A stretch of DNA of 64,000 nt. It comes from the human T2T-CHM13v2.0 reference genome, Homo sapiens. How positions within the stretch are numbered: position 1 is the stretch's first letter; every line of letters begins with the position of its first letter. Position numbers and translations under genes: made by a program. Under the pieces are notes generated by a model. That model saw nothing but the letters and a program-made list of their open reading frames with translations, had not been told where the DNA came from and searched no databases. Below are positions 1,526 through 60,922 of the stretch, in pieces. Where the stretch lies: assembly GCF_009914755.1 (NCBI RefSeq), contig NC_060939.1. One strand, 5' to 3'.

Positions 1526-2332
1526 CTTTGTCAGATGGGTAGATTGCAAAAATTTTCTCCCATTCTATAGGTTGCCTGTTCACTCGGATGACAGTTTCTT
1601 TTGCTGTGCAGAAGCTGTTTAGTTTAATTGGATCCCATTTGTCAATTTTGGCTTTTGTTGCCATTGTTTTTGGTGTTTTAGTCATGAAGTCTTTGCCCAT
1701 GCCTATGTCTTGAATGGTATTGCCTAAGTTTTCTTCTAGGGTTTTTAAGGTTTTAGGTCTTACATTTAAGTCTTTAATGCATCTTGAGTTAATTTTTGTA
1801 TAAGGTGTAAGGAAGGGATCTAGTTTCAGCTTTCTGCATATGGCTAGCCAGTTTTCCCAACACCATTTATTAAATAGGGAATCATTTCCCCATTGCTAGT
1901 TTTTGTCAGGTTTGTCGAAGATCAGATGGTTGTAGATGTGTGGTGTTATTTCCGAGGCCTCTGTTCTGTTCCATTAGTCTATATATCTGTTTTGGTACCA
2001 GTACCATGCTGTTTTGGTGCTGGAAACCATCATTCTCAGCAAACTAACATAGGAACAGACAAACAAACCCCATATGTTCTCACTCATAAATGGGAGTTGA
2101 ACAATGAGAACACATGGACACAGGGAGGGGAACATCACACACCGGGGCCTGTCAGGGGTGGGGGTTTAGGGGAGGGATAGCATTAGTAGAAATACCTAAT
2201 GTAGATGATAGGTTGATGGGTGCAGCAAACCACCACAGCACGTGTGTAACTATGTAACAAACCTGCACATTCTGCACATGTATCCCAAAACTTAAAGTAT
2301 AATAAGAAAAAAATAATTTTAAACATTTTAAA
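1526..2332 (+). mobile_element. 5'-inverted (twin-primed) L1PA7/8-like insertion
   Basis: 1526-2017 is minus-strand ORF2 ([11 protein letters not shown]...KIDKWD); 2018-2332 is plus-strand 3' end and A tail; TSD aaaagaatgagct at 1513-1525 and 2333-2345. Confidence 0.92.
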
Positions 2333-2489
2333 AAAAGAATGAGCTAATTTTGAAATGTGTCTTAGAAATTTTAAAACAGAATTTCATTTTTTAAACCCAC
2401 TGATGCCTTCAATTTCAAATTGTAGATGTTTGTTTTTACATAGAAGATGGTTGGTTTTGGTACGTCCTGCTGCTCATCATTGCATCATT

Positions 2490-2760
2490 TTTATCACATA
2501 TCATTTCAGTGAGGCCTTCCCTGACCATCTCATTTAAAATTATAAACCCTTCCCTGTCATTCCCCATCTCTCTTCCCTGCTTTATTTTTCTCCTATTACT
2601 TTTGAGTGCCCTATGTGATTTACTTATTTAGCTTATTATGTCTCTTTCCCCTCTTCCCCATGAGACCAGAGACCTGTCATTTTGTCCACTGTCATATGCC
2701 CTGGGCCTGGAATACTGCTTGGCCTGTAGTAGGTGCTCAAGAAATATTTGTTGCATGAAT
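2490..2760 (+). mobile_element. LINE L2 3' end
   Basis: gaggccttccctgacc...gcctgtagtaggtgctcaagaaatatttgttgcatgaat, typical L2a terminus. Confidence 0.75.
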
Positions 2761-5700
2761 AGGGTGAAGGTCGTTATCGCAATTGTGGATATTAACTCAT
2801 ATTTCCAATAATCATATTGATAATTTTGAGCCTTTTTGCCTGAATTTGTATTCAACTTGTGTGAACTATGATGCCTTCAATTAGGAATAAGAGGAATGCT
2901 TGCCTGTGCTTGCATTGCTCATGTATCTTCATACCACAGTTTTCCTTTTAAAACCAGAGGGTCAGGTTGTGAGGGTTAGCTTAGCTAGAACTAGATAGTG
3001 TTATCTGGAAGCCTAACTGGGTAAGTGCAAACCATTATATGCTGGGAGAGGCTGAGTGCAAATGTGGGCAGGAGGGCCCCCCTGCCCTGTGGAGGCCACA
3101 GTTTGCTCTGTCTCCCTCTTGAGCTGGGATGCACAGCCCAAGAGGGAGGTTGGTCTGAGTGAGGTTGTTAGTGTCAAACCATATATTAAAGTATTAATAA
3201 AGATTGATTTCCATTAATTTTTAGATACGAATCAATGTAAGTAGAATTCCTACTGTGTTCTCTCACTTCAGTGGCCCACTGAGTGCTTTCAAGAGAACCA
3301 GGAGAGAGATTGCATCGAGGGCCTGGCTGAGGGCAGCAGAAGGGTAAGGACTGATCAGCTTCACCTGAGGAAGTCTGGGTGGGCAGTCTTCCAGGCATTC
3401 CAATTTGAAGGGTTCAACCCTTATTGGGAAGTATTTTTCTGCTATGCTTATTGTTTTTAAAAGTTCAAATAGGCCACACCCTTCATCTATTACACCACTA
3501 CTTTGCCAATGTGTAAAACAAGTCACTGACATGTGACAATGAACATTTTTAGGATTGTCTGTTGTTAACCATCTCTGCTTAGCAGAGAACAAGTAGACTG
3601 AAGCTTACAATTATATGTATAGAGATTTGCCCATGGTGAGAATTACTACAATTTAGAATGTGTTTCTAATAGTTCCCATTCCTATACTGTGGTCTATGAG
3701 GAATGATATAGGTGGGCTCTTACTTGGCACAACATTTCTTTGGGTTCGTTCACAATCTGAGCTCAGGAGAAACTGATTTTGTCTTAATAAAAATTCTATG
3801 GAGACCATGGCCTTGATTCACTTCAACTGCTGGAAGTACAATCGATATTCTGAAATAGGCAGGTAAAGCATTTCCTATTTTAAAATTGCTTGTATTATCT
3901 TCCTTTTTATTTTTAAAACACATATTTTTGTTGGGAAGCAGATACTTTGCCACTCATTCCAGGTAAACGGTGAATAGTTGATTGTATCTGCCTAATTCCA
4001 GCTGATGAAGACCATGCTCAACAGAAAGAATGGTGCTAGAAATAAGTAGTTTTAAACTTGTGACTTGGCAGCACTATCTACTTCTGAAGGAGGTGGGCCA
4101 TTTGTAGTTTACCCACCGCATAGATTTTGTACAAAAGCCTGAGTTAACTGGTCCCACATTTATTGAAATGGTCTTCTAACATCTCTTACAGATTGATACC
4201 ACCTCCACGAACAGCCTTGCTGTTGGTCCTGTAATCCAGCTACACAGGGATAGTTTTAATGAGTTGTTAAAGTCCCTTGTCGCCTTGAGACCCAATTATT
4301 CAAACTCAGGGACTGTAATCTAATTGAATCATTTCAATAAGAAATTATGATTTTCATCTAAGTTTTAATGTAATGCACTCCAGTGGATTACACTGAGGTT
4401 ATTCCAGCATGCTTTCAACTTTTGCAATAAAGACATCTCTATAGTCACAAAGCAGGGCCAAATCCTCATATGTAGCTAAGTTCTTTCAAAGTGGAGGGCA
4501 CTCTTTTACCTAGTCTCTTTCTGAGTGTGCTTCTATGCCATGTTTGCCCAGTTCATGTACATATGTGCATGAAACAGGACCAGTACACTGAGCTTTTTAT
4601 GAAGTGGTATGTTGCATACGTGCTGAGTGATCTGGACTGTGCGGAGCTAAAGCATTCATTTGGCCATCTTGGCAATCAATACTGACCACCTCGACTGTAT
4701 GCTTCAGTCTGGAGTCTGCATTAATTACAAGGGTGACCACAGTGAAGAATCAACTGTATCAGGATTCTATTTATATTTTTCAGATGGGCACAATGTCTTG
4801 GTCAACATTTAACATGGACTGTGCTCTGAAAATCTGAGCTATAATATTATAACTCATAAATTCAATGGGCAAGGGAGAGAAACAAATAAAAACTTAAGGG
4901 TCCCAATTTCCATAATAAAGTATACATAAGACTATATTTGTGCTATAATTTTGTGATTTCTAACATTTTTCTTATTGTGGTAGAAGGTACTTCTACAACT
5001 TGGACCGAAATTTCAAAAAGAGAAAAAACATTAATCATATGCTAATTAGCATGTATCATTAAATGTTATAGAGTGAGACAGGAAGCCTTCCTCCTTATAA
5101 ATGGCTCATTCCATTTCTTCTACACTGTCAGATATTTGGCCATTTCTCTCTCTGTCTTCTCTCTGATTCCGTTCTTTGCTGTGCAGACTGCAAAATATAA
5201 TAACTTCTAAGCAGTGTGTAAAACAAAGTGCTCAATTCACTTTATTAAAATATCCAATAATAATTGATTTAAAGGCAATAAAATGTGTTCATTAGAGGGT
5301 TTATATTCAAGAAATATTGAAAGTATACCTAAAACTGTCACTTTTATTGTGAATGAACAGGATAATATAATTTGAAAAGAGTGTGATCATACTAAAGATT
5401 TGTCCTGCAGCATTATCTGATAGCTCGTAAAGTGCTGAAATTTAATATGATGCTTTCAGTCAGTTTAATTGAAATGTAATTGCCACTTTGGGCAGAAGGT
5501 TTAGATCTGATCAATAAAATATTAAAGATTTTGTGCTTTCGCTTGGAACAGCTCCTTTAGTGATGCATCAAGAGGACCCTATATTTTCGGAAATATTTGT
5601 TTGTTGTAGTTCACACAGTGCTCAATATCACTTTCTAATCTGAAAGTTTTAATGTGCTGTGCAGACAAATAGTGGAAATAATAAAGCAATAGTTGATCCA

Positions 5701-6921
5701 TTTAATTACAACACGATGAAAGAAATAACGGTCACCTTCAGATTCATGAGAAAGGCATTAATGTAAAAGAGCAATAAATATTTTGAAATGTCAAACCTCA
5801 GAAAGACAGAGTCCAACTTGAGCTGGGTTGTAAATCAGACTGAGGGAAAGACCTTGAAAAAAAGATGGTTCTTTGGTGTTTTAGAAATAATTACTAATAC
5901 AAAAAGGGTAATGATGAAACTATAAATTACATTAAAAAGGGCCATTAGAGGAGGATTAGTTTATAAAGCTGAGAGGTGGTTCTTAAAATTGTCCTTCTGG
6001 TTATTTCTACTTTTCATTTTATTCAGGAACCCCCTGCTCAATTATCTGATTATTAATAAATTAATTGATCACTACTTTGCAGTTCAAATGCTAAAGTCAA
6101 CTTTCTTCTTTTCAGAGATTCCCATGGGATTTCCATATTACTTATATTTTAGGAAGGAAGAAAGTTGAAGATTTCTTAAGATAGGTGAATAGTAAACTGA
6201 AGAGTAACTTTAAGCTAAGTTATGTCTTTACTAATATGTCTTAAAATTATGATTTCTTTTAGATCACTATGTTCCAAAGATGACTTTGATATTCCTGTGG
6301 CTATAATGCTTTCCAAATGACCTTTGGCATAATTCTTTTTCTAATGATCCCTTATTTCCTGTAGAACTTTTCAATAGCTTCATGTTTGGGAACATATATT
6401 TCTTTACTCACCACTCTCCTATGAGATTCTAAGTTCAATAACATGGTATGTTGTTTTATTTGGTTCATTATATCTCTGAAGTATAAATATGTTTTTTGTT
6501 TACAACCATATCTAGTTAACTGCATAACAAGACTAGTTATCTGTAATGACCTAATCACTCTTTTCTTCTCTATCCACCTCTGTCCCAGATTTCTCTTAAT
6601 TGCCTGAAATCACTATAGTTTTTAATCTTACTACCTTATTGCAATAGATCATTTTATTTTGAAGTAGACACATTTTTTTCCTGTGACCAGTCAAAAAAAT
6701 TGTATTTTTGTGATATTTAGATGCTGGACATGTAAAGGACATTTAGATTATGGACCCTGGGAATACAACAATGTCTAAGAAAAACATTCCTAGCTCCAAG
6801 GAACCTAGTTTCTAGTTGCTGAGAGACAATAAACATACATACATAAAGAAGGCAAATTAAATTCATGACAAATACAGCACTATGAAGGAGATAAAATAGT
6901 TTAATTGGGAGTGGGTGACTG

Positions 6922-6971: not shown

Positions 6972-7702
6972 TTGTATACTAGCAGCTTTGGCTCCTTTTC
7001 TGAGGAGGTAGCATTTAATGACAACAGGAGGCAGCCTTGTAAGGATTTTGGAGAAGGCATTCCAGGCAGATGAAATAACAAATGTAAGAATACTAAGACA
7101 GGCATGAGCCTGATTTTAGGGTACATGCAGAATATTAGTGAGGCACTTATGCAGTAACCAAGGTGAATACTGGGAAGAAATGACATCAAAAGGGAGGCAG
7201 GGATGAGATCATGTAGGGTTTTGTAGGCCATAGTGAGAAGTTTTGACTTTATTTAAGTACAATGAGAAGCCATGGGAAGGACTTAAGCAGAGGCAGGCAG
7301 GTAGTAATGGAATGTGTATATGTGTGCCTATTGGGAAAACCAATAGGTTTGCTTGGTCCCTGTTAAGTTACAGATGCCAATTGTGATATATCAAGGAGGC
7401 ATTTGGATATATCAAGTGATATATCAAGGAGGTAGTTGGATCTAGGAGGTTAGAGCTCAAAGAGAGGTCTTAACTTGGAATATAAATTCAGTTTTATTAA
7501 CATATAGATGATACTGGAAAATAGATGGGATTATTTGAGAGATTATAGGTAGAGAAGAGAGAATCAAGGAGAGGGCCTTGGTGATCACTAGAGATCTAGA
7601 TTTAGATCTGACAGAACAGGGGAAGCCAAGAAAAAAGATTGAGAAGGTGTGACCAGTGACAGTGAAAGAAAATTAGGAAAGTGTGGTATTATTGAATGTG
7701 AG

Positions 7703-7882
7703 ATAAAGAAAATGTGGCATATGTACACCATGTAATACTGCTAAGCCATAAAATGGAACAAAATAATGGCCTTTGCAGTGACATAGATGGAGATAGAGGC
7801 CATTATTCTAAGTAAGGTAACTCAGAAATGGAAAACCAATATCATATGTTCTTACTTATAAGTGGGAGATAAGCTATGAGGA
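7703..7882 (+). mobile_element. Internal L1 (L1PB/L1MA-like) fragment with no 3' tail
   Basis: ataaagaaaatgtggcatatgtacaccat...cttataagtgggagataagctatgagga matches the ORF2 end / 3'UTR start. Confidence 0.8.
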
Positions 7883-8010
7883 TAAGAAGATGGTGTTTAA
7901 AGTAGGTCACTGTAGATCACTGAAGACCTGATTCCTTCAGTGGAGTGATAGAAAGGATTTGGTGCATTGAGAAGAGATTGGGGAGATAGAAATTGGAGAC
8001 AGTGAATATA

Positions 8011-15142: not shown

Positions 15143-16592
15143 CTCAGAAATATGTTGCTACTTGGTTGCCTTTACTCTATTATTGTACACCTTGAAGGTG
15201 GGGTTAAATAAGTTCCTGTTGTGGGGTTTGAGGGCTGGAACTTAATTTTTGGAGCTTTATTTAATGTCGGGAACAGATTGGGTAATAAAATAAAATGTAT
15301 ATTGAGAATAAGACGGCCTTTTGACCTTTTAGGGTCTAGGGCTGTAAAGCCTCTCAGGGTTGCTGACGAATGAGCCATGAACTGGGCTGGGTTTTTTATA
15401 TTTGATGAAAAAGAGTCTAAACGCTAACTGATTCGGGAGAGGTGGGATAAAGAAAAAGGAGCATTAACCTTGACTATGCCTTTAGCTCCAGCCACCTTTT
15501 TAAGAGTAAATTGCTGGGCAGGTGGGGGAGGGCTAGTCGCGGAACCAAACTGTAAGCCAGGCGGGTGTAGAAGGGGAGGTGATAAAAGGATTATAGGGTG
15601 GAGGATCGGAGGCTGAGGAAGAATCGGGACCTAGCTCTGCCTGGTGAGGAGGGGAGAGGTCAGATGGGTCTGTAGAAAAGGAAGATTAGAAAGACTCAGC
15701 GACGCTTGGGGTTGGGACTGAGGGGACAGGCGGGAGGGAAAGAAGGAAGATTTGGGACGAGTTGCATTGGGAACAGAGACTAGACCTATGTGTAAAAGAA
15801 TGCCTGGACGTCAGGCACCTCAGACCATTTGCCCATTTTACGACAAGAATTATCTAGATCTTGTAGGATGGAAAAATCGAAAGTGTCGTTTTCTGGCTAT
15901 TTAGAGTCATTTTCAAGTTTGTATTGGGGCTAAGCAGTGTTGCAGAAGAAAATAAGATGCTTAGATTTTAGGTCAGGCGAGAGTTGAAGAGGTTTTAAGT
16001 TCTTAGGAACACAGGCTAAGGGAGAAGAAGGAGGAATGGAGGGAGGGTGGAATGTTGCCTATAGCGAAGGAGGCAAGTTTAAAGAAAAGGGCAGAGATAC
16101 GGAGAAGGGGGTGGGGAGCAGCCAAAGCAGGTGTCCCCGCAATTGACTTGCCACTAAGGGAACATGGGTGAATGATCAAGGCAGGCGTCCCGAGGAGATC
16201 AGACACCAATGGAACGTGGGTGAACAATCACAGAGGCGTCCCTGCAGTGATTAAACACCAAGGGAAGGCTGACTTCCCGAGTCCGTGACCGGCGCCAGAG
16301 TTTTGGGTCCACAGATAAAATGTGTCTCCTTTATCTCTACCAGAAAATGAAAGGAACTGAAATGAAGAGAAGGGAGAGACTGAAGTGTGGCAACAAGATT
16401 GAAAGGAGAAAGAGGTTGAGGGATAGTGAGGGAGGCTGGAGAAGAGAGTAAAAAGAGGCCGCTTACTGGATTTAAAATTGGTGAGATATTTCTTGGGCTG
16501 GTTGGTCTGAGGACCAGAGGTCGTAGGTGGATCTTTCTCATGGAACAAAGAGCAGGAGAACAGGGGATTGATCTCCCAAGGGAGGTCCCCCG

Positions 16593-16610
16593 ATCCGAAT
16601 CACGGCACCA
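16593..16610 (-). other. Primer binding site complementary to tRNA-His
   Basis: Minus strand tggtgccgtgattcggat, 2 nt after the U5 end ...catgaaa. Confidence 0.92.
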
Positions 16611-17061
16611 AATTTCATGGGCATCTGTGTGGAGACCACCAAACAGGCTTTGTGTGAGCAACAAGGCTGTTTATTTCACCTGGGTGCAGGTGGGCTGACT
16701 CCGAAAAGAGAGTCAGCCTCTTCATAGGATTTGTCTGTAACATTTGTATGTTTACTTGGGAATATTCTAGGGCCCTCCTTAGAATTACAGTTTTTGACTG
16801 ATTCCATTAGCTTTTTTTTGAGAATAAAAAACTACAAGAGATATACTATTATTAAATGAATACTGGAAATACAAAACAAACTAGAAATAAGAGGAAACCT
16901 TTCCTGATTCTACCACAGAAAGACAATCGCTGCTAATGTCTGATGACTTTCCTCTTTCGTTTTTCATTCATAGACTTTTCTGGTAACGGTTTTTCAATGT
17001 TTCAAGTGTGCTCCAAATACTAATTGCTATGTCACTCTAAAAGTGTCTATTGTGTGATGAA

Positions 17062-50369: not shown

Positions 50370-51863
50370 AGCAGAAAAGACTTTTATTTCTGTTGGCTTT
50401 TTCATCACTCCTCACCTTGTTCTTGTTTTATACAGCATCTGATAGCAAGTGTCAAGAGAAATTTAAAATTATAGCTCATTTACTCTGGTTAAACATAAGG
50501 AAGGAAAAGCAATTACCAGAGTAAAATGATGGAATTAAAGATTCTTCTTGCAACCTAGTTAGGTATTTAGTGTTTGATGAGTGCTGGAAAAGATAAATAC
50601 ATTTTTTTTCAAGGAGGACTGTGTCAATCTGCAATCATGAATAAAAGACTCTGAACATGATTTAGATATCAAACATATGGTTTGCAAACAAAATCAATCT
50701 TTCTCTAGGCAGTAAGAGTTAGTTGACAATATACTGTACCTCTTTTTTGTTACTAAATTGGAAAATGTTTTTTTAGTGGTGAATAAATTTCTTGCACCAA
50801 CAACAGTTTTGTTTTTGGTTTTTTAATATATATATATATATTTTTTTTGCAGAGGAAACATGCTACAAGATAGATGGCGCTTTAGAAGAGACCACACAGA
50901 TGGTCTATAGAAAATCTTACAAATATAATCCCATATAAACAGCGTAAATGCATTCTTCATATGAGGATAAAATGTTAATTAGTTTGGTTTAATTACAGAT
51001 TTGTTACATGCTAAAGTATAAATTTAATGGATTGGTGATTCAATTTGATAGATCATAAAAAATAACTGTGAGCATGTTACTGATTGTTTTGCTGACTAAC
51101 CTAACATGGATGCCCTATGCATCTTTAATTCACCTCTGGTTCAAAATGTGCCTCATTCATAAAGAGCCCATCTAATGATCAAACATACTTAATTCATGCT
51201 AACATGAGAGATGTGGATCAGTCTTTCTTTAAAACAATCATGTAGTCATTGTATTATCTTTCACAATACTTCATAAGAAAGAGTCACAAATTAGTACTGG
51301 TGTCTCTAGCAATATAACATTCAGTAATGTTGCTATAATTTTGTCCTCAAAAATTTTAAGAAATATGATTTTAGGAGTGAGTTGTAGTTATTTTGCATTT
51401 CTGATGAAGGCAGGAAAACAGGGAAGAGATACTAGTCACATCAGCAAAAGACTGAAGAGGAAAACTTTTGAATCAAGAGCATCTTAAGATATTGGAATGA
51501 GTTATTTAAGGAAGCTGTGGGATCTCTTGCTAAGATTCTGAAAGATATTATTGGTGTGGGATGATGAAGTGTCATTTTGTTGCAAGGCTGTAGATTAGAC
51601 CAGACCAGCTTTAGGAATACATTTCATAAATGATTATGCTCCCAAACTTCTTTCTATTTTAATGAGTTTTCATCATTGGCATTCACACTTATCAATGCTA
51701 TCAATTCCTCCTAGCCTGCTCACCTATTGCCAGTTCTAACAAGCGTGCATAATAATTCCACGTCAACAAAGATTGCAACAAAATAAACACCAAATAGAAA
51801 AATGGATAAATTCAGTACTGATATTTATTATTTGTGTTATGTCATTTGGTCATGTCTATTTTC

Positions 51864-51917
51864 TTTTTTTTAATTTAATTTAATTTAATTTTGTTTTACT
51901 TTAAGTTCTGCGATACA
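51864..51917 (-). mobile_element. Orphan L1 3' terminus and tail (left inversion breakpoint)
   Basis: T-rich tail + tactttaagttctgcgataca; 51888-51917 is the exact reverse complement of 53973-54002. Confidence 0.9.
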
Positions 51918-51919
51918 CA

Positions 51920-52870
51920 ATGGCTGAAAATTTTTGCAATCCATCTGACAAAGGTCTAATATCCAGAGTCTACAAGGAGCTTAAACAAATTAACAAGAAA
52001 ACAAACAACCCCATTAAAAAGTGGCCAAAAAACATGAACAGCCACTTCTCAAAAGAAGACATACATGAGACCAAAAAACATATGAGAAGAAGCTCAACAT
52101 CAGTGATTATTAAAGAAATGCAAATTAAAACCACAATGAGACACCATGTCATGCCTGTGGAAATGGCTATTATTAAAAAGTCAGAATACAACAGATGCTG
52201 CAAGGTTGCAGAGAAAAGGAATGCTTTTACACTGTTGGTGGGAGTGTAAATTAGTTCAACCATTGTGGAAGACAGTGTGGCAATTTCTCAAAGACCTAGA
52301 GGCAGAAATACCATTTGACACAGCAATCCCATTACTGGGTATATACCCAAAGGAATATAAATCACTCTATTATAAATATACATGCACATGTATGTTCATT
52401 ACAGCGCTGTTCACAATAGCAAAGACATAGACTCAACTCAAATGCTCATCAATGATAGACTAGATAAAGAAAATGTGGTACATATACACCATGGAATATT
52501 ATGCAGCCATAAAAAGGAATGAGATCATTCCATTTGCAGGGACATGGATGAAGCTGGAAGCCATTATCCTTAGCAAACTAATGCTGGAACAGAAAACCAA
52601 ACACTTCATGTTCTCACTTATAAATGAGAGCTGAATGATGAGAACACATGGACACATTGGGGGAAATAATACACACTGGGGCCTGTAGGATAGGCAGTGT
52701 CAGGGGAGGGAGAGCATCAAGAATAGCTAATGGATGCTGGGCTTAATACCTAGGTGATGGGATGATCTGTGCAGCAAACACCATGGCACATGTTTACCTA
52801 TGTAACAAACTTGCACACCCTGCACATGTACCCCGGAACTTAAAATAAAATAACAACAACCGCAAAAAGA
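51920..52870 (+). mobile_element. L1PA13-15/L1PREC2-like 3' portion
   Basis: ORF2 C-terminus ([17 protein letters not shown]...); 3'UTR gaatagctaatggatgctgggcttaatacctaggtgatgggatgatctgtgcagc. Confidence 0.9.
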
Positions 52871-53299
52871 AAATTACATTAGGAAGAAAATAAGGAAAAC
52901 AGAATTAGGTTTTCTTTTCATGTAATGTTTTACATTACATTAAGGTATAAAATGCTTGTATGCCAAATGATTTAGAGTTCACTGAAATATTATAAATCCT
53001 TTTAACTCATGGTCACTAACAAATAAACATATATCTTTTCATGGCTTAAGGTAGGAATTTTGACAAAATTGAAGGAAGAACATCAGTTCTTCTCAGCCCT
53101 TGCTTTTGAAAACAGTTTTGACCCAATTTTCTCTTATATTTCTTGGTTAACACAAATGAAACACTGTGCTTATTTCTATTTGAGGTGTTGTTACAATTTT
53201 TTGGTCATGGATCTTTAGTTTTCCTCCTTAAAATAACAGAATTTCAGAAAACCATCAGTGACTAACATTCTAATCCAGTTATGGAAATAGGACATGACC

Positions 53300-54004
53300 C
53301 AGAATGGCGATTATTAAAAAATTGAGAAACAATAGATGTGGGCGAGGCTGTGGAGAAATAGGAATGCTTTTACACTGTGGTTGCGAGTGTAAATTAGTTC
53401 AACCACTGTGGAAGACAGTGTGGCAATTTCTCAAGGATATAGAACCAGAAATAACATTTGACCCAGCAATCCCGTTACTGGGTATACACTCAAAGGAATA
53501 TAAATCATTCTGTTATAAAGACACAAGCACATGTATGTTTATTGCAGCACTGTTTACAGTAGCAAAGACTTGGAACCAAATGCCCATCAATGATAGACTG
53601 GATAATGAAAATGCGATACATATACACCATGGAATACTGTGCAGCCATACAAAAAGAATGAGATCATGTCCTTTGCAGGGACATGGATGAAGCTGGAAGC
53701 CATCAATCTCAGCTAACTAACCCAGGAACAGAATACCAGACACTGCATGCTCTCTCTTATAAGTGGGAGTTCAACAATGAGAACACATGGACACAGAGAG
53801 GGGAGCAATACACACAGGGGCCTGTTGGGTGGTTGGGGGTGCAAGGGGAGGGAGAGCATTAGGACAAATAGCTAATGCATCTGGGGCTTAACACCTATAT
53901 GACGGGTTGATGGGTGCAGCAAACCACCATGGCACATGTATACGTATGTAACAAACCTGCACATTCTGCACATGTATCGCAGAACTTAAAGTAAAACAAA
54001 ATAA
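53300..54004 (+). mobile_element. 5'-truncated L1PA8/10-like element
   Basis: MAIIKKLRNNRC...; 3'UTR cattaggacaaatagctaatgcat...gatgggtgcagcaaaccacc. Confidence 0.9.
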
Positions 54005-54044
54005 AAGGATGCCCTCTCTCACCACAAACAAATGAAAAAACATT

Positions 54045-57000
54045 ATTAGTCACTTTGGACAGTATGACCATTTTCACAATATTGATTCTTCCTATCCATG
54101 AGCATGGAATGTTTTTTCATTTGTTTGTGTCCTCTCTGATTTATTTGAGCAGTGGTTTGTAGTTCTCCCTAAAGAGGTACTTCACTTCCCTTATTAGCTG
54201 TATTCCTAGGTATTTTATCCCTTTTGCAGCAATTGTGAATGGAATGGGAGTTCATTCAGGATTTGGCTCTCTGCTAGCCTGTTGTTGGTGTATAGGAATG
54301 CTGGCAATTTTTGCACATTGATTTTGTATCCTGAGACTTTACTGAAGTTGCTTATCAGCTTAAGAAGACTTTGGGCTGAAACAATGGGATTTTCTAGACA
54401 TAGAATCATGTCATCTGTGAACAAAGATAATTTGATTTTCTGTCTTCCTATTTGATAACCTTTGCCAGAACTTTCAATACTGTGGTAAATAGGAGTGGTG
54501 AGAGAGGGCATCCTTGTCTTGCGCCAGTTTTCAAGGGGAATGCTTCTAGCTTTTGCTCATTCAGTATGAAATTGGCTATGGGTTTGTCATATATGGCTCT
54601 TATTATTTTCAGGTATGTTCCATCAATCCTTAGTTTATTGAGAGTTTTTAATATGAAGGGATGTTGAATTTTCTGCATCTACTGAGATAATCACGTGGTC
54701 TTTCTTCTTTTTTAGTTCTGTTTAATGTGATAATTCACATTTATGGATTTGCATATGTTGAACCAATTTTGCATCCTGGGGATGAAGCCAACTTGATCAT
54801 GGTGAATAAGCTTTTTGATGTGCTACTGGATTCAGTTTGCCAGTGTTTTATTGAGGATTTTTGCATCGATGTTCATCGAGGATATTGGTCAGAAGTTTTC
54901 TTTTTGTTGTTGTTGTATCTCTAACAGGTTTTGGTATCAGGATGATGCTGGCCTCATAGAATGAGTTAGGGAGGAGTTCCATCTTTTTTATTTTTTTTGG
55001 AATAGTTTTAGTAGGAAAGGTATCAGTTCTTCATACCTCTGGTGGAATGCAGCTGTGAATCTGTTTGGCCCTGGGCCTTTTTTTCATTGTTAGGTTATTT
55101 ACTGCTGCCTCAATTTCAGAATGAATATTGGTCTATTCAGGGATTCAATTACTTTCTGGTTCAATCTTGGGTGGGTGTATGTCTCCAATAGTTTATCCAT
55201 TTGTTCTAGATTATCTAGTTTATATGTATAGAGGTGTTTGTAGTATTCTGTGATGGTTGTTTGTATTTCTGTGTGGTCAGTGGTAATATCCTCCTTACCA
55301 TTTCTGATAGTGTTTATTTGATTCTTCTCTCTTTTCTTCTTTATTACTCTAACCAGAGGTCTATTTTATTAATTTTTTTCAAAAAACAACCTCCTGGATT
55401 TGTGGATTTTTTGAAGGGTTTTTCGTTTCTCTATCCCCTTCAGTTCAGCTCTGATCTTGGTTATTTCTTGTCTCCTGCTAGCCTTGGGGTTTGTTTGTTC
55501 TTGGTTATCTAGTTCTTTTCATTGAGATGTTAGGTTCTTAACTTGACATCTTCATAGCTTTTTGATGTGGGAAATTAGTGCTATAAATTTCCCTCTTAAC
55601 ACTGCTTTAGCTGCATTCCAGAGATTCTGGTACATTGTCTCTTTGTTCTCATTAGTTTCAAAGAACGTCTTTATTTCTGCCTTAATTTCATTATTTACCC
55701 AAGTGTCAATCAGGAGCAGGTTGTTCAATTCTCATGTAGTTGTGTGGTTTTGAGTGAATTCCTTAATCTTGAGTTCTAATTTGATTATGCTGTGGTTTGA
55801 GAGACTGTTTGTTATAATTTCAGTTCTTTTGTGTTTGCTAAGAAGTGTTTTACTTCCAATTATGTGATCACTTTTACAGTAAATGGCAATGAGAAGAATG
55901 TATATTCTGTTGTTTTTTGGGGAAAAGTTCTGTAGATATCTATCAGGTCCTCTTGATCCAGAGCTGAGTTTAGGTCCTGTATAGCTTTGTTAATTTTCTG
56001 TCTTGATGATCTATCTAATGTTGACAGTGGGGTGTTAAAGTCTCCCACTATTATTGTTTGGGAGTCTAAGTCTTTTTGTGGGCCTCTAAGAACTTTCTTT
56101 ATGAATGTGAGTGCTCCTCTATTGCATGCATACATATTTAAGATAGTTTGCTCTTCTTGTTGAATTGAACCCTTTACCATTATGTAATGCCTTTCTTTGT
56201 CTTTGTTGATCTTTGTTGGTTTAAAGTCTGTTTTGTCAGAAACTAGGATTGCAACCCCTGCTTTTTTCTGTTTTCCATTTTCTTGGTAAATTTTCCTCCA
56301 TCCCCTTATTTTGAGTCTATGTGCGTCTTTGCACGTGCATGGGTCTCCTGAAGACAGCACACCAGTGAGTCTTGGCTCTTTATCCAGCTTGCCATTCTGT
56401 GTCTTTTAATTGGGGTCATTTAGCCCATTTATGTTTAAGGTTAGTATTGTTATGTATGAATTCTTGTCATCATGATGCTTGCTGGTTATTTTGCAGAGTT
56501 ATTTATGTGGTTGCTTCATATTGTCACTTATCTGTGTACTTCAGTGTGTTTTTGTAGTGGCTGGTAAGTTTTTTATTTCCATATTTAGTGCTTCCTTCAG
56601 GAGCTCTTGCAAGGCAGGACAGGTGGTGACACATTCCCTCAGCATTTACTTGTCTGAAAGGGTCTTATGTCTCCTTCACTTATGAAGCTTAGTTTGGCCA
56701 GATATGAAATTCTGGGTTGGAAATTCTTTTTTTTAAGAATGTTGAATTTTGGCCCCCAATCTCTTCTGGCTTGTAGGGTTTCCACTGAGAGGTCCGCTGT
56801 TGGTCTGACAGGATTCCCTTTGTATGTAACCTGGCCTTTCTCTCTGGCTTCCCTTAACATTTTTTTCTTTCGCTTCAACCTTGGAGAATCTGATAATTAT
56901 GTGTCTTTGGGTTGATACTCTCATGAAGTATCTTACTGGGGTTCTCTGCATTTCCTGAATGTGAATGTTCAAATTCAAATTCAGAAAGTTCTCCTGGATG

Positions 57001-59071
57001 ATATCCTGAAGTATGTTTTCTGACTTGGTTCCATTCCTCCCTTCTCATGGAGTATCTTACTGGGGTTCTCTGCATTTCCTGAATTTGAATGTTCAAATTC
57101 AAATCCAGGAAGTTCTCCTGAATGACATCCTGAAGTATGTTTTGTGACTTGGTTCCATTTTCCATCTTTTTCAGGTACCCCAATAAGCTGTAGTTCAGTC
57201 TCTTTACGTAATCCCATATTTCTCAGAGGTTTTGTTCATTTAATTTTATTCTTTTTTCTTTATTCTTGTCTGCCTCTTTTATTTCAGAAAGACAGCCTTC
57301 AAGCTCTGAGATTCTTACCCCAACTTGGTCTATTCTGCTATTGATACTTGTGATTGCATTGTGAAGGTCTTGTGTTGTTTTTTTCAGCTCCATCAGGTAT
57401 TTATGTTCCTCTCTAAATAGGCTATTCTGGCTATCAGCTCCTGTATTATTTTATCATGATTCTTAGCTTCTTCACATTGAGTTACAACTGCTCCTCTAGC
57501 TCAGCAAAGTTTGTTCTTCTGAAGTCTACTTCTGTAGCCTACTTCTGTCAATTCAGCCATATCAGCCTCAGCCCAGTTCTGTGCCCTTGCTGGAGAGGTG
57601 TTGTGGTCATTTGGAGGAGAAGAGGCTTGGGCTTTTAGAGTCTTCAATGTTTTTGCGTTGATTCTTTCTCATCTTCATGGGTTTATCTACCTTTGATTTT
57701 TGAGGTTGCTGACCATTGAATGGGGTTTTTGTAGGGTCTTTTTTGTTGATGTTGATGTTGTTGTTGTTGTTTTCTGTTTGTTTGTTTTTAACAGTCAGGC
57801 CACTCTTCTGCAGGGCTGCTGTGATTTGCTGGGGTTCTGCTCCAGACCCTAGTTGCCTCAGTTTTTCCCATACCTAGAGATATCACCAGTGAAGGCTGCA
57901 AAATGCAGACGACAGCCTGCTCCTTCCTCTGGAAGCTCCATCCCAACACAGTAGTGACTTGCTGCTGGCTCAAATGGTTCTGTAGGAGGTAGCTGGAGAC
58001 CCCTGTTGGGAGGTCTCACCCAGTCAGGAGGAAGAGGATCAGGGACTCAGTTAAAGAAGCAGTCTGGCTGCTTTTTGGTAGAGCAAGTGTGCTGCACTGG
58101 GGGGGGCCCTTCCTTGTCTGAATTGTTTGTATTGTCCAAAGCCAGCAGGCTGGAATGGCTGAATTGACACTAACCTCAGAGATGGCAGCTGCCCCTCCCC
58201 CTGGGAGCTTTGTCCCAGGAAGTGATCAGAGCTCTGTCTGTAGAACCCTAGCTGGAGTGGTTGAATCCCCTGCAGGGAAATCCTGCCCATTGAGGAGGAA
58301 TGAATCAGGGTCCTGCTTAAAGAAGCAGTCTGGCCATGATCTGGCAAGGCTGCTTTGCTGCACTGAGGGGTGCCCTTCCTTGTCCAAAACATTTGTATTC
58401 TCCAAAGCTGGCAGGCTAGAATGACTGAATCTACTAAACTCGAGAGATGGTACCTGTCCCTCCCCCAAGAACTCAGTCCTGACTCAGGCAGACTCTAGCC
58501 TGTTGCCTTTGGCTGGCTAGAATTCCAAGCCAGTGGATCTTAACTTGCGAGGTGCCGTGGAAGTGGAGCCTGCAGAATGAGGCTGCTTGGATCCCTGGAT
58601 TCAGCCCCCTTTCTAGGGATATGTAGGGATGGATCTTGCCGCAGGTCCTGGGGCCAGAGTATGTAAAACTCCTGGGTCTCTGTGTGTGCCTGAGCGGCTG
58701 CTCTTCAGAGACCCCACACAGCTCTGTGTATTGGACCCAAGGCCCTGGTGTCATGGGCTCAAGAGGGGATCTGATGCATAGGTTGCAAAGCTTCATGAGA
58801 GAAGCATGGTTTCCTGGGCAGGGTCGCACAGTCACTCACCACTTCCCTTAAGTGGGGTGGGGGTTCCCTTGGCTCTGTGCTGCTCCTGGATGGGCCATCA
58901 CCCCACCCTGCTTTTTCTTCATTCTTTGTGGGTTGAATTATTTGCCTATTCAGTCCCAATGTAAGAACGTGGATATTTCAGTTAAAGGTGCTGAATTCAC
59001 TTACTCCTTTCATTCCTCTCTGTGAGTGCTGTGGACTGCAGTTGCTTCTAATCAGCCATCTTGCCCCCTCC
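54045..59071 (-). mobile_element. L1PA13-15/L1PREC2-like element, 5'UTR + ORF1 + most of ORF2
   Basis: 5' end gagggggcaagatggctgattagaagcaac; ORF1 remnant (REKGQVTYKGNPVRPTADLSVETLQARRDW); EN remnant (KKAGVAILVSDKTDFKPTKI...IIVGDFNTPLS). Confidence 0.92.
56919..57166. repeat. 124-bp tandem duplication inside L1 ORF1
   Basis: tctcatg(a/g)agtatcttactggggttctctgc starts at 56919 and 57043. Confidence 0.9.
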
Positions 59072-59405
59072 AACATTTTCATTAGATTACTTAATTTTAC
59101 TACTCTGTTGATGAGCAGTAATTGAGTTCCACTTCTACCATTTCTAAAATCCCATTCAGATCTTGTTAAAATTTTTCTAAACATTACTGATGTTTTGTTG
59201 GTGTAGGTATGTATTTGAAAGACTTACAAACATACTTGTTCATTGCATAGTAATCTAAAATTTGTTTTCAATACATAAACCTAAGGAGGTTGTGTCTATA
59301 TTTTTCTAAGATAAAATATCAGATATTTCCAATAATTGGAAGGCTAATAATGATTGAACCCCAGTTCTGTCTCATATGTTAGATATTTCTTGCCTTGTAT
59401 CTCTT

Positions 59406-60920
<1,515 letters not shown>

Positions 60921-60922
60921 TT

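What the first reader, a model, noticed from the sequence alone, without database searches (positions are those of the whole stretch)
51848..54050. Cryptic ~2.1 kb inversion shown by an inverted TSD pair
The L1 at 53300-54004 (+) has 5' flank gaaataggacatgacc (53284-53299). Its partner lies on the opposite strand, ggtcatgtctattttc (51848-51863), next to an orphan L1 tail. The orphan 30-mer 51888-51917 is the exact reverse complement of 53973-54002, including the non-consensus tatcgcag. Flipping ~51918-54004 restores that L1 with tail and TSD. It also places the L1 3' piece 51920-52870 colinear with the similar-age minus-strand L1 at 54045-59071, minus ~0.65 kb of ORF2 (estimated with the neighbouring L1 as ruler). 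Perfect identity of the duplicated pieces inside old L1s suggests a recent event, possibly lineage-specific or polymorphic.
Basis: partly seen in the sequence, partly recalled or inferred. Interest (0 to 1): 0.8.

Follow-up and report, generated by a model that had tools for sequence, protein, structure and literature searches.

The report
Small complex inversion splitting two L1s
A 2.1 kb piece of junk-DNA-rich human chromosome 15 was flipped long after two L1 retrotransposons had landed there, in a messy but well-known type of rearrangement that also lost about 0.64 kb and copied a few short snippets, with no gene nearby.

Summary
The 30-mer 51888-51917 is the exact reverse complement of 53973-54002, and this 30-mer occurs nowhere else in CHM13. 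The target-site duplication (TSD) partner sits exactly beside the orphan tail, but it is imperfect (13 of 16 ungapped).

Un-inverting 51918-54006 restores a normal 0.7 kb L1 (L1-A). It also puts the 0.95 kb L1 3' piece (L1-C) colinear with the full-length minus-strand L1 (L1-B, to 59071), minus about 640 bp of ORF2.

Positions 54007-54044 are two inverted copies (19 and 22 nt) of L1-B sequence lying 63 and 450 bp away. Every junction has 2-4 nt of microhomology. This is an inversion-plus-deletion with templated insertions, best explained by serial template switching or polymerase-theta-type repair.

All 68 duplicated nucleotides are identical, against about 9-10 differences expected if the event were as old as L1-A. 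The event is therefore at most about 0.3-0.5 of L1-A's age.

One T2T-based human inversion catalogue has no call here, so polymorphism is unsupported. Lineage specificity could not be tested because no outgroup genomes were available. This is an ordinary, probably neutral member of a known class.

The parts
51848..51863 (-). Distal TSD copy of L1-A, now in inverted orientation relative to its partner
   Evidence: it is the only match with 3 mismatches or fewer to the proximal TSD in the window, and it abuts the orphan tail.
51864..51887 (-). Orphan A-rich tail of L1-A (reads as T-rich on the + strand)
   Evidence: sequence read directly. It lies between the TSD copy and the orphan 30-mer.
51888..51917 (-). 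Orphan copy of the last 30 nt of L1-A, left in place; this is the inverted duplication at breakpoint 1
   Evidence: exact reverse complement of 53973-54002; the exact 30-mer occurs only at these 2 places in the genome.
51914..51917 (.). Breakpoint 1 microhomology TACA, shared by the end of the 30-mer and the start of L1-C
   Evidence: 12 of the 13 aligned L1 relatives read TACA at the corresponding position just before L1-C homology begins (L018 reads CACA). Blast homology starts at 51914.
51918..52873 (+). L1-C: the 3' 0.95 kb (end of ORF2, 3' UTR and A-rich tail) of the broken old L1, now inverted
   Evidence: aligns to ruler L026 7065-7992. Best genomic relatives are 85-87% identical.
52874..53283 (.). 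Non-L1 spacer carried along inside the inverted segment
   Evidence: no L1 ruler aligns here.
53284..53299 (+). Proximal TSD of L1-A
53300..54006 (+). L1-A body: a 5'-truncated 0.7 kb L1 3' end. Its last 30 nt (53973-54002) are the source of the orphan copy.
   Evidence: aligns to ruler L026 7309-7992. Best relatives are 86-88% identical. Terminal branch 0.073.
54007..54025 (+). Templated insertion W: a 19-nt sense copy of L1-B sequence whose template lies at 54495-54513
   Evidence: I9. The string is also found in other L1s, so a local origin is inferred rather than proven.
54023..54044 (+). Templated insertion X: a 22-nt sense copy of L1-B sequence whose template lies at 54108-54129. It overlaps W by CAC.
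   Evidence: I10: 22 of 22 complementary; it carries the L1-B private variant ATGA, seen in 0 of 13 relatives.
54045..54051 (.). Seven nucleotides of ambiguous origin at the last junction (diverged L1-B or filler)
   Evidence: 4 of 7 match the relatives. Different rulers start their alignment between 54043 and 54056.
54052..59071 (-). L1-B: the 5' UTR to mid-ORF2 of the same old L1, full length at its 5' end and not inverted. It contains the templates of W and X.
   Evidence: colinear with ruler L026 6424 down to 1801; the 5' end was read directly. Terminal branch of its proximal 0.95 kb is 0.081.

Best explanation
Ancestral state: two L1 insertions lay here in the same (minus) orientation. 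One was a full-length element (L1-B plus about 640 bp plus L1-C). The other was a 0.7 kb 5'-truncated element (L1-A) with a normal tail and direct TSDs, about 0.4 kb away.

Much later, one complex rearrangement did four things:
1. It inverted the 2.09 kb between a point 30 nt from L1-A's 3' end and a point in ORF2 of the long L1.
2. It kept a second, inverted copy of those 30 nt.
3. It lost about 640 bp of ORF2.
4. It filled the right junction with 19-nt and 22-nt inverted copies of L1-B sequence taken from 450 and 63 bp away.

Every junction has 2-4 nt of microhomology.

Mechanism: the most likely is serial microhomology-guided template switching of a nascent strand (FoSTeS/MMBIR-like). It would take four switches within about 2.7 kb:
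- forward and onto the opposite template at TACA;
- back through 2.09 kb;
- two short hops within L1-B;
- resumption 640 bp downstream of where synthesis should have resumed.

A break-and-join route with polymerase-theta-type templated fill-in gives the same product and cannot be separated from it here. My odds are about 55:35.

Shown versus inferred: the final structure, its derived polarity and its youth relative to L1-A are shown. That it was a single event, and the enzymology, are inferred. No function is expected. The locus is a gene desert inside L1 sequence.
For: - L1-A is split. Its body with the proximal TSD is at 53284-54006 (+). Its last 30 nt, tail and distal TSD are at 51848-51917 (-).
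- The exact 30-mer is unique to these two places in CHM13, and both copies share its two departures from the common family form.
- The TSD partner is the only match in the window with 3 mismatches or fewer, and it sits exactly at the tail.
- L1-C starts and L1-B ends exactly at the two breakpoints that L1-A defines. On a full-length ruler they map to 7065-7992 (+) and 6424-1801 (-), so one flip makes them colinear with 640 bp missing.
- Gap estimates from the other rulers, worked out by hand from the blast coordinates: L002 623, L008 628, L003 about 631, L010 641, L011 630, L016 635, L017 608, L018 634, L025 639, the shared C15 and C13 elements (which are L025 and L026 again, from the coordinates) 643 and 645. 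There are two outliers: L012 at 535, and the shared C3 element at about 919, which I presumed without checking carries an insertion.
- Terminal branches are C 0.074 and B 0.081. L1-C-type relatives L010-L012 match L1-B at 83-91%, over only 293, 100 and 636 aligned nt. L1-A-type relatives L022 and L024 match it at 79-81% over about 626 nt. Three elements are shared between the two top-40 lists.
- Templated insertions are present: 22 of 22 and 19 of 19 nt complementary to nearby L1-B (I9 and I10). X carries an L1-B private variant seen in 0 of 13 relatives.
- Microhomologies are TACA, AA, CAC and about 2 nt (read).
- Timing: 0 differences in 68 duplicated nt, against 9.9 expected if the event were coeval with L1-A, giving P about 5e-5. 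With a deliberately low branch of 0.045, P is 2e-3.
- Control: the neighbouring L1 at 59406-60907 has a perfect 15-nt direct TSD, so the TSD logic works at this locus.
Against: - No outgroup or second human haplotype could be examined. Polarity and reality rest on internal logic alone.
- The TSD pair is imperfect (13 of 16 ungapped).
- No convincing TSD pair was found for the L1-B/L1-C element. The best inverted match at the expected spots is about 8 of 12 in A-rich sequence. The second, independent 'inverted TSD' test therefore failed to confirm, although it also does not contradict at about 15% pairwise decay.
- W is identical in several other L1s, so its local origin is only the simplest reading.
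- Seven nt at 54045-54051 are unexplained.
- The deletion and the small insertions could be separate, later events.
- The genome searches scored only 40 of about 16,000-17,000 candidates each. 'Best relatives' and the branch lengths are therefore approximate.
- The age bound rests on only 68 nt.
Confidence: 0.8

Rival explanations
1. Breakage and end joining rather than replication. A staggered break in L1-A's 3' end is filled in to give the 30-nt inverted duplication. Two breaks, or one break with resection, in the long L1 lose 640 bp. The segment is re-ligated in reverse by alternative end joining, and polymerase theta snap-back synthesis adds the 19- and 22-nt patches. The product is the same as in the best explanation; only the route differs.
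For: Short microhomologies at all junctions and short templated insertions from within 0.5 kb fit theta-mediated end joining as well as they fit template switching. That attribution comes from my knowledge of the field, not from a call. A staggered break is the classical explanation for an inverted duplication at an inversion breakpoint (recalled).
Against: It needs three or more independent lesions within 2.7 kb plus two rounds of templated patching. Under a staggered-break model both breakpoints should show duplications, yet breakpoint 2 shows a deletion instead.
Confidence: 0.3
2. Two or more separate events: a simple inversion, with the 640-bp deletion and/or the 38-nt insertion arising earlier or later at the same spot.
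For: Nothing in a single haplotype fixes the order of events. Deletions inside old L1s are common.
Against: The deletion edge, the insertion and the inversion junction coincide to the nucleotide. All duplicated pieces are equally undiverged, with 0 differences in 30, 19 and 22 nt.
Confidence: 0.1
3. The rearrangement happened during L1-A's own retrotransposition, either as a twin-priming-like process or as an L1-endonuclease-associated inversion of target DNA.
For: One breakpoint lies inside L1-A's 3' end. L1 insertion-associated inversions exist; twin priming is cited's reference list and counted there as 1,047 polymorphic cases.
Against: Twin priming gives an inverted 5' L1 segment directly joined to the 3' segment inside direct TSDs. 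Here the TSDs are inverted and 1.4 kb of other DNA separates the parts. The duplicates show 0 of 68 differences against about 9-10 expected if coeval with L1-A. The X copy carries a variant private to the already-diverged L1-B.
Confidence: 0.03
4. Coincidence. The orphan 30-mer plus tail is an independent, very short L1 insertion, and L1-C is an independent 5'-truncated insertion. There was no inversion.
For: Very short L1 3' fragments with tails exist (recalled). The TCGCAG variant is not unique, as the 19-mer occurs at 17 places genome-wide.
Against: The exact 30-mer occurs only at these two places in 3.1 Gb. The orphan has no TSD of its own on its right side and instead carries L1-A's TSD in reverse. 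L1-C has no 5' TSD and starts exactly at the orphan's end. This reading needs several independent coincidences.
Confidence: 0.03
5. Non-allelic homologous recombination between inverted L1 copies (retrotransposon recombination-mediated inversion), or an assembly artefact.
For: The region is L1-dense, and RRMI is documented between human and chimpanzee (PMC2603318, passages read).
Against: In the reconstructed ancestral state all three L1 pieces are in the same orientation, and the breakpoints map to non-homologous L1 positions (about 30 nt from the 3' end versus ruler 6424/7065). There is no inverted homology to recombine and no chimeric elements. An assembler artefact is unlikely for a 2.1 kb segment flanked by only 30 nt of inverted identity in a T2T assembly, but reads were not available to check.
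Confidence: 0.03

Closest known systems
'Inv and Del' / complex inversion class of human structural variants (Sudmant et al. 2015, PMC4617611, passage read; Schloissnig et al. 2025, PMC12350158, passages read)
   Same: A kilobase-scale inverted segment with an adjacent deletion and extra breakpoints. In 1000 Genomes only 20% of sequenced inversions were simple and 14% were 'Inv and Del'. In 1,019 long-read genomes, 159 of 733 non-mobile-element inversions had an adjacent deletion, and balanced inversions had a median length of 1,565 bp.
   Different: Those are polymorphic calls. This one has no polymorphic call in the one catalogue I could read, and it was inferred from a single haplotype through retrotransposon landmarks.
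FoSTeS / MMBIR serial template switching (Hastings et al. 2009, PMC2621351, abstract start seen) and short-range template switches in great apes (Walker et al. 2021, PMC7954356, abstract start seen)
   Same: Microhomology at each junction, nearby templates copied in inverted orientation, and duplication, deletion and inversion combined in one product.
   Different: The long copied stretch (2.09 kb) is larger than the short-range switches described by Walker et al. and much smaller than most disease-associated FoSTeS events. Replicative origin is inferred, not shown.
Retrotransposon recombination-mediated inversions and TSD-based polarity calling (Lee et al. 2008, PMC2603318, passages read; supplement searched)
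   Same: The same logic of using mismatched TSDs of breakpoint-spanning L1 or Alu elements to recognise an inversion and call its ancestral state.
   Different: Their events arise by recombination between inverted homologous elements and give chimeric elements. Here there is no inverted homology at the breakpoints. Their only chr15 locus (hg18 chr15:88.64 Mb) is elsewhere.
L1 twin priming (Ostertag and Kazazian 2001; seen only as a citation, mechanism recalled)
   Same: An L1 with parts in opposite orientation.
   Different: In twin priming the inverted part is the 5' segment, it is contiguous with the rest, it lies inside direct TSDs, and it is as old as the insertion. None of these holds here.

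Membership tests
Post-insertional inversion recognised by a split retrotransposon (TSD logic of Lee et al. 2008) | The two TSD copies of one element lie in opposite orientation, and one of them is separated from the element body | tested here: met
   the proximal TSD is at 53284-53299 (+). The distal copy is at 51848-51863 (-) with the tail and the last 30 nt.
Post-insertional inversion recognised by a split retrotransposon (TSD logic of Lee et al. 2008) | Reversing one segment restores intact elements on both sides | tested here: met
   after the flip L1-A is whole, and L1-C (ruler 7065-7992) follows L1-B (ruler 1801-6424) on one strand, minus 640 bp.
Post-insertional inversion recognised by a split retrotransposon (TSD logic of Lee et al. 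2008) | An outgroup or another haplotype shows the un-inverted state | not testable with these tools
   the held genome has no relatives. The ape T2T tables were not readable, and that study curated only events above 10 kb.
Retrotransposon recombination-mediated inversion (NAHR between inverted L1s) | Inverted homologous repeats at both breakpoints in the ancestral state, giving chimeric elements | tested here: not met
   the breakpoints fall at non-homologous L1 positions, and all pieces share one orientation in the ancestral state. Only 4 nt (TACA) are shared at breakpoint 1.
L1 twin-priming inversion | Inverted 5' segment joined directly to the sense 3' segment, within one pair of direct TSDs | tested here: not met
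   the displaced part is the 3' tail end, 1.4 kb of other DNA intervenes, and the TSDs are inverted.
L1 twin-priming inversion | The junction is as old as the insertion | tested here: not met
   0 of 68 duplicated nt differ, against 9.9 expected (P about 5e-5).
Inversion with adjacent deletion / complex inversion (structural variant class) | Inverted segment plus loss of adjacent sequence, with more than two breakpoint junctions | tested here: met
   four junctions, about 640 bp missing by rulers, a 30-nt inverted duplication and a 38-nt insertion.
FoSTeS/MMBIR-type template switching | Microhomology of a few nucleotides at each junction | tested here: met
   TACA, AA, CAC and about 2 nt. The last junction is ambiguous because of 7 unexplained nt.
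FoSTeS/MMBIR-type template switching | Inserted segments are templated from nearby sequence | tested here: met
   I9 and I10: 19 of 19 and 22 of 22 nt match templates 450 and 63 bp away. X carries a local private variant. W alone is not locus-specific.
FoSTeS/MMBIR-type template switching | Arises during replication in one event | not testable with these tools
   This is inference from the architecture only.
Staggered-break inversion with inverted duplications at both ends (Drosophila-type model, recalled) | Sequence that is single-copy in the ancestor is duplicated in inverted orientation at both breakpoints | tested here: not met
   Breakpoint 1 has the 30-nt duplication. Breakpoint 2 has a deletion of about 640 bp instead.

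The most novel reading that the evidence does not exclude
The rearrangement is a fixed, human-lineage-specific complex inversion (arising after the split from chimpanzee) made in a single four-switch replication error. L1 landmarks date every junction, which would make it a clean natural example of kilobase-scale germline template switching. It also falls below the 10 kb cut-off of the current curated ape inversion list. With 0 differences in 68 duplicated nt, the median age estimate is about 7-11% of L1-A's age. If L1-A is a few tens of millions of years old (calibration recalled, not computed), that is a few million years.
Probability: 0.35. Interest if true: 0.35.

Novelty: new member of a known kind. 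Interest (0 to 1): 0.22.

Why it matters
The event matters little for function. No gene lies within 100 kb on one side, the nearest annotated gene is a lncRNA 84 kb away, and the event sits inside L1 sequence.

Its value is methodological. Retrotransposon TSDs and tails let a small inversion, its polarity, its relative age and its full breakpoint anatomy be read from a single haplotype. Events of this size fall under the 10 kb cut-off of the curated ape inversion list. If it proves human-specific, it would add one well-resolved example to the sparse set of small fixed inversions on the human branch. The ape T2T paper reports that branch as having fivefold fewer inversions than expected (for events above 10 kb).

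Tried and rejected
- Second inverted TSD pair for the L1-B/L1-C element. I searched 52840-52960 against 58900-59500 for direct and inverted words and read both flanks. The longest inverted words were 9 nt and not at the junctions. The best junction-anchored match is about 8 of 12 in A-rich sequence. This is not usable.
- L1 at 59406-60907 as the missing 3' part of L1-B. Its 5' truncation lies only about 100 ruler-bp from L1-B's break. I rejected this because it has its own perfect 15-nt direct TSD, is only 78% identical to L1-C, and lies on the wrong side.
- Paralogous or empty-site copy elsewhere in CHM13. The junction query 51840-51990 found only itself in full length, plus L1 matches to its right half.
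- Catalogues:
  - Giner-Delgado 2019 supplements: no 'chr15' string in the 12 of 18 files searched. Six files were not searched.
  - Lee 2008: its only chr15 locus is at 88.6 Mb.
  - Schloissnig 2025 supplement file 2: it is truncated as stored and holds no inversion sheet.
  - Porubsky 2022 (Cell): not held.
  - Porubsky 2023: no number starting with 3508 in 3 files, and no chr15 call between 30.37 and 42.83 Mb.
  - Ape T2T supplement: unreadable.
  - Moreira-Pinhal 2026: only the outline was read, and its supplements are not held.
- My hg38, hg19 and hg18 coordinates are only rough estimates from chromosome-length differences. Older-build catalogues therefore could not be queried reliably.

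Full report
**Observation.**
- 51888-51917 is the exact reverse complement of 53973-54002. The repeat finder extends the pair to 34 nt at 97% (I7).
- A pattern search of the whole CHM13 assembly, which the tools hold as G000, finds the exact 30-mer only at these two places. Two further places have one mismatch, and 158 in all have two or fewer.
- The common form among those hits differs from ours at two positions, and the orphan copy shares both. The orphan is therefore a copy of this particular L1's end, not of L1 ends in general.
- The shorter 19-mer with the TCGCAG variant occurs 17 times genome-wide. The variant alone is rare but not unique.
- The TSD pair is similar, not identical: 13 of 16 ungapped, or 15 matched columns with two single-base indels, and an exact terminal 9-mer.
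- The partner is the only other match in the window with 3 mismatches or fewer on either strand. Shuffled windows give 0.62 such matches on average. What makes it significant is that it abuts the orphan A-rich tail exactly where a TSD should be.

**Anatomy.** I used L1 copies from elsewhere in the same genome as rulers. Four L1 pieces are present.
- L1-A (53300-54006, +) is a 5'-truncated 0.7 kb 3' end.
- L1-C (51918-52873, +) is a 0.95 kb 3' end with its tail.
- L1-B (54052-59071, -) runs from a complete 5' end to mid-ORF2.
- A fourth L1 (59406-60907, -) has a perfect 15-nt direct TSD. It is an ordinary independent insertion and serves as a local control for the TSD logic.

On the full-length ruler L026:
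- L1-B covers 6424 down to 1801.
- L1-C covers 7065-7992.
- L1-A covers 7309-7992.

L1-C begins and L1-B ends exactly at the two breakpoints that the split of L1-A defines. One flip of 51918-54006 therefore does two independent things. It rejoins L1-A to its tail and distal TSD. It also makes L1-B and L1-C one colinear minus-strand element.

**Size of the missing stretch.** The estimates below were worked out by hand from the blast coordinates.

| Ruler | Missing ORF2 (bp) |
|---|---|
| L026 | 640 |
| L025 | 639 |
| L002 | 623 |
| L008 | 628 |
| L003 | about 631 |
| L010 | 641 |
| L011 | 630 |
| L016 | 635 |
| L017 | 608 |
| L018 | 634 |
| C15 and C13 elements shared (the same elements as L025 and L026) | 643, 645 |
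| L012 (outlier) | 535 |
| C3 element shared (outlier) | about 919 |

I presumed, without checking, that the C3 element carries an insertion.

**Same element?**
- Terminal branch lengths were estimated from pairwise distances only, with no consensus built. They are 0.074 for L1-C and 0.081 for the proximal 0.95 kb of L1-B. Without CpG-containing columns they are 0.070 and 0.077.
- Relatives picked as best matches of L1-C (L010-L012) match L1-B at 83-91%, over only 293, 100 and 636 aligned nt. Relatives picked for L1-A (L022, L024) match L1-B at 79-81% over about 626 nt.
- Three genomic elements appear in the 40 scored hits of both the L1-C and the L1-B searches.
- L1-A's best relatives match L1-C at only 82-83.5%, and L1-C's best relatives match L1-A at 81-84%. 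L1-A therefore belongs to a different lineage.
- A second inverted TSD pair for L1-B/C would have been decisive, but I could not find one. At about 15% pairwise decay this is not surprising, but it stands as a failed confirmation.
- Each genome search scored only 40 of roughly 16,000-17,000 first-look candidates, so 'best relatives' are approximate.

The right breakpoint is not a simple join. Between L1-A's end and L1-B lie two short inverted copies.
- 54007-54025 is 19 nt and is the reverse complement of 54495-54513.
- 54023-54044 is 22 nt and is the reverse complement of 54108-54129 (I9 and I10).

The two pieces overlap by CAC. The 22-nt piece carries a base that is private to L1-B, seen in 0 of 13 aligned relatives, so it was copied from the local, already-diverged element. 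The 19-nt piece is identical in several other L1s, so its local origin is only the simplest reading.

Junction details:
- Breakpoint 1 has 4 nt of microhomology, TACA at 51914-51917. Twelve of the 13 aligned relatives read TACA just before L1-C homology begins; L018 reads CACA.
- The junction from the tail into the 19-mer shares AA.
- The last junction has about 2 nt of overlap, followed by 7 nt (54045-54051) that I cannot assign.

**Mechanism.** The product reads S1-S2 | rc(S3)-rc(S2) | W | X | S5.
- S2 is the 30-mer.
- S3 is the rest of the inverted segment.
- S4 is the lost 640 bp.
- W and X are inverted copies of sequences inside S5.

A single nascent strand could produce this with four microhomology-guided switches:
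1. From the end of S2, jump forward about 2 kb onto the opposite template.
2. Copy back through S3 and S2.
3. Make two short hops within L1-B, moving towards the break.
4. Resume at the start of S5.

This accounts for the duplication, the deletion, the insertion and the inversion together, and it is the FoSTeS/MMBIR pattern. Three breaks joined by alternative end joining, with polymerase-theta-type templated patches, would give the same sequence. I put the two routes at roughly 55:35, with the rest for multi-step histories.

NAHR between inverted L1s is excluded. In the ancestral state all pieces share one orientation, and the breakpoints fall at non-homologous L1 positions.

Twin priming, or any insertion-coupled event, is excluded by geometry and by age (next section).

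**Age.** The duplicated pieces total 68 nt (30 plus the 38-nt union of W and X) and show no differences from their templates.
- L1-A's terminal branch is 0.073, or 0.066 without CpG columns.
- If the event were as old as L1-A, about 9.9 differences would be expected, giving P about 5e-5. With an arbitrarily low branch of 0.045 the expectation is 6.1, giving P about 2e-3.
- The 95% upper bound on the event's age is 0.30-0.49 of L1-A's age, and the median is 0.07-0.11.
- Converting this to years needs an L1 clock that I only recall, so I do not rely on it. The qualitative result is that the event is much younger than the L1s. It could be either human-specific or shared with other apes.

**Population and species status.** No primate genome or second human haplotype is reachable with these tools.
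- Porubsky et al. 2023 (PMC10150506) remapped 41 genomes against T2T-CHM13; its Table S1 has 44 sample columns, includes PAV calls as small as 1.76 kb and lists 14 chr15 inversions. None lies between 30.37 and 42.83 Mb (supplement searched, main text not read). If CHM13 carried a rare allele, most samples should have been called inverted. This weakly argues that the arrangement is the common or fixed one, with the caveat that a complex event may be missed.
- The ape T2T paper curated only inversions above 10 kb (passage read), and its tables were unreadable here.
- The other catalogues I tried were uninformative. They are listed under Tried and rejected.

**Comparison with the known.** This is a member of a familiar class.
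- In the 1000 Genomes map, only 20% of sequenced inversions were simple and 14% were 'Inv and Del' (PMC4617611, passage read).
- In 1,019 long-read genomes, 159 of 733 non-mobile-element inversions had an adjacent deletion, and balanced inversions had a median length of 1,565 bp (PMC12350158, passages read).
- Using TSDs of breakpoint-spanning retrotransposons to call polarity is established (PMC2603318, passages read).
- I found no printed record of this particular event. Those searches were limited, and the supplements that I could not read may hold it.

**Verdict.** This is a real, derived, post-insertional complex inversion. It is mechanistically ordinary and probably neutral. Low interest.

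Noticed in passing
window 51723-51737: A published non-reference polymorphic Alu insertion (chr15-35081737-INS, 328 bp, CHM13 coordinates; PMC12350158 supplement file 2, sheet 18) maps 111 bp left of the left TSD. Fifteen nt of its listed TSD match the window exactly.
   Followed up: partly
window 59391-60922: An independent 5'-truncated minus-strand L1 (59406-60907) with a perfect 15-nt direct TSD (59391-59405 and 60908-60922). Its truncation point lies only about 100 ruler-bp from the break in L1-B, which I judged a coincidence.
   Followed up: yes
window 56919-57159 and 58038-58430: Internal tandem duplications inside L1-B: period 124 nt at 94% identity, and period 266 nt at 76%. They also show as overlapping ruler alignments.
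   Followed up: no
L006 and L007 (G000:C12:41196166-41199246; G000:C8:122278643-122281723): In these two ruler loci an antisense ORF2 piece lies directly upstream of a sense L1 3' piece. This looks like twin-priming-type or nested L1 structures at unrelated loci.
   Followed up: no
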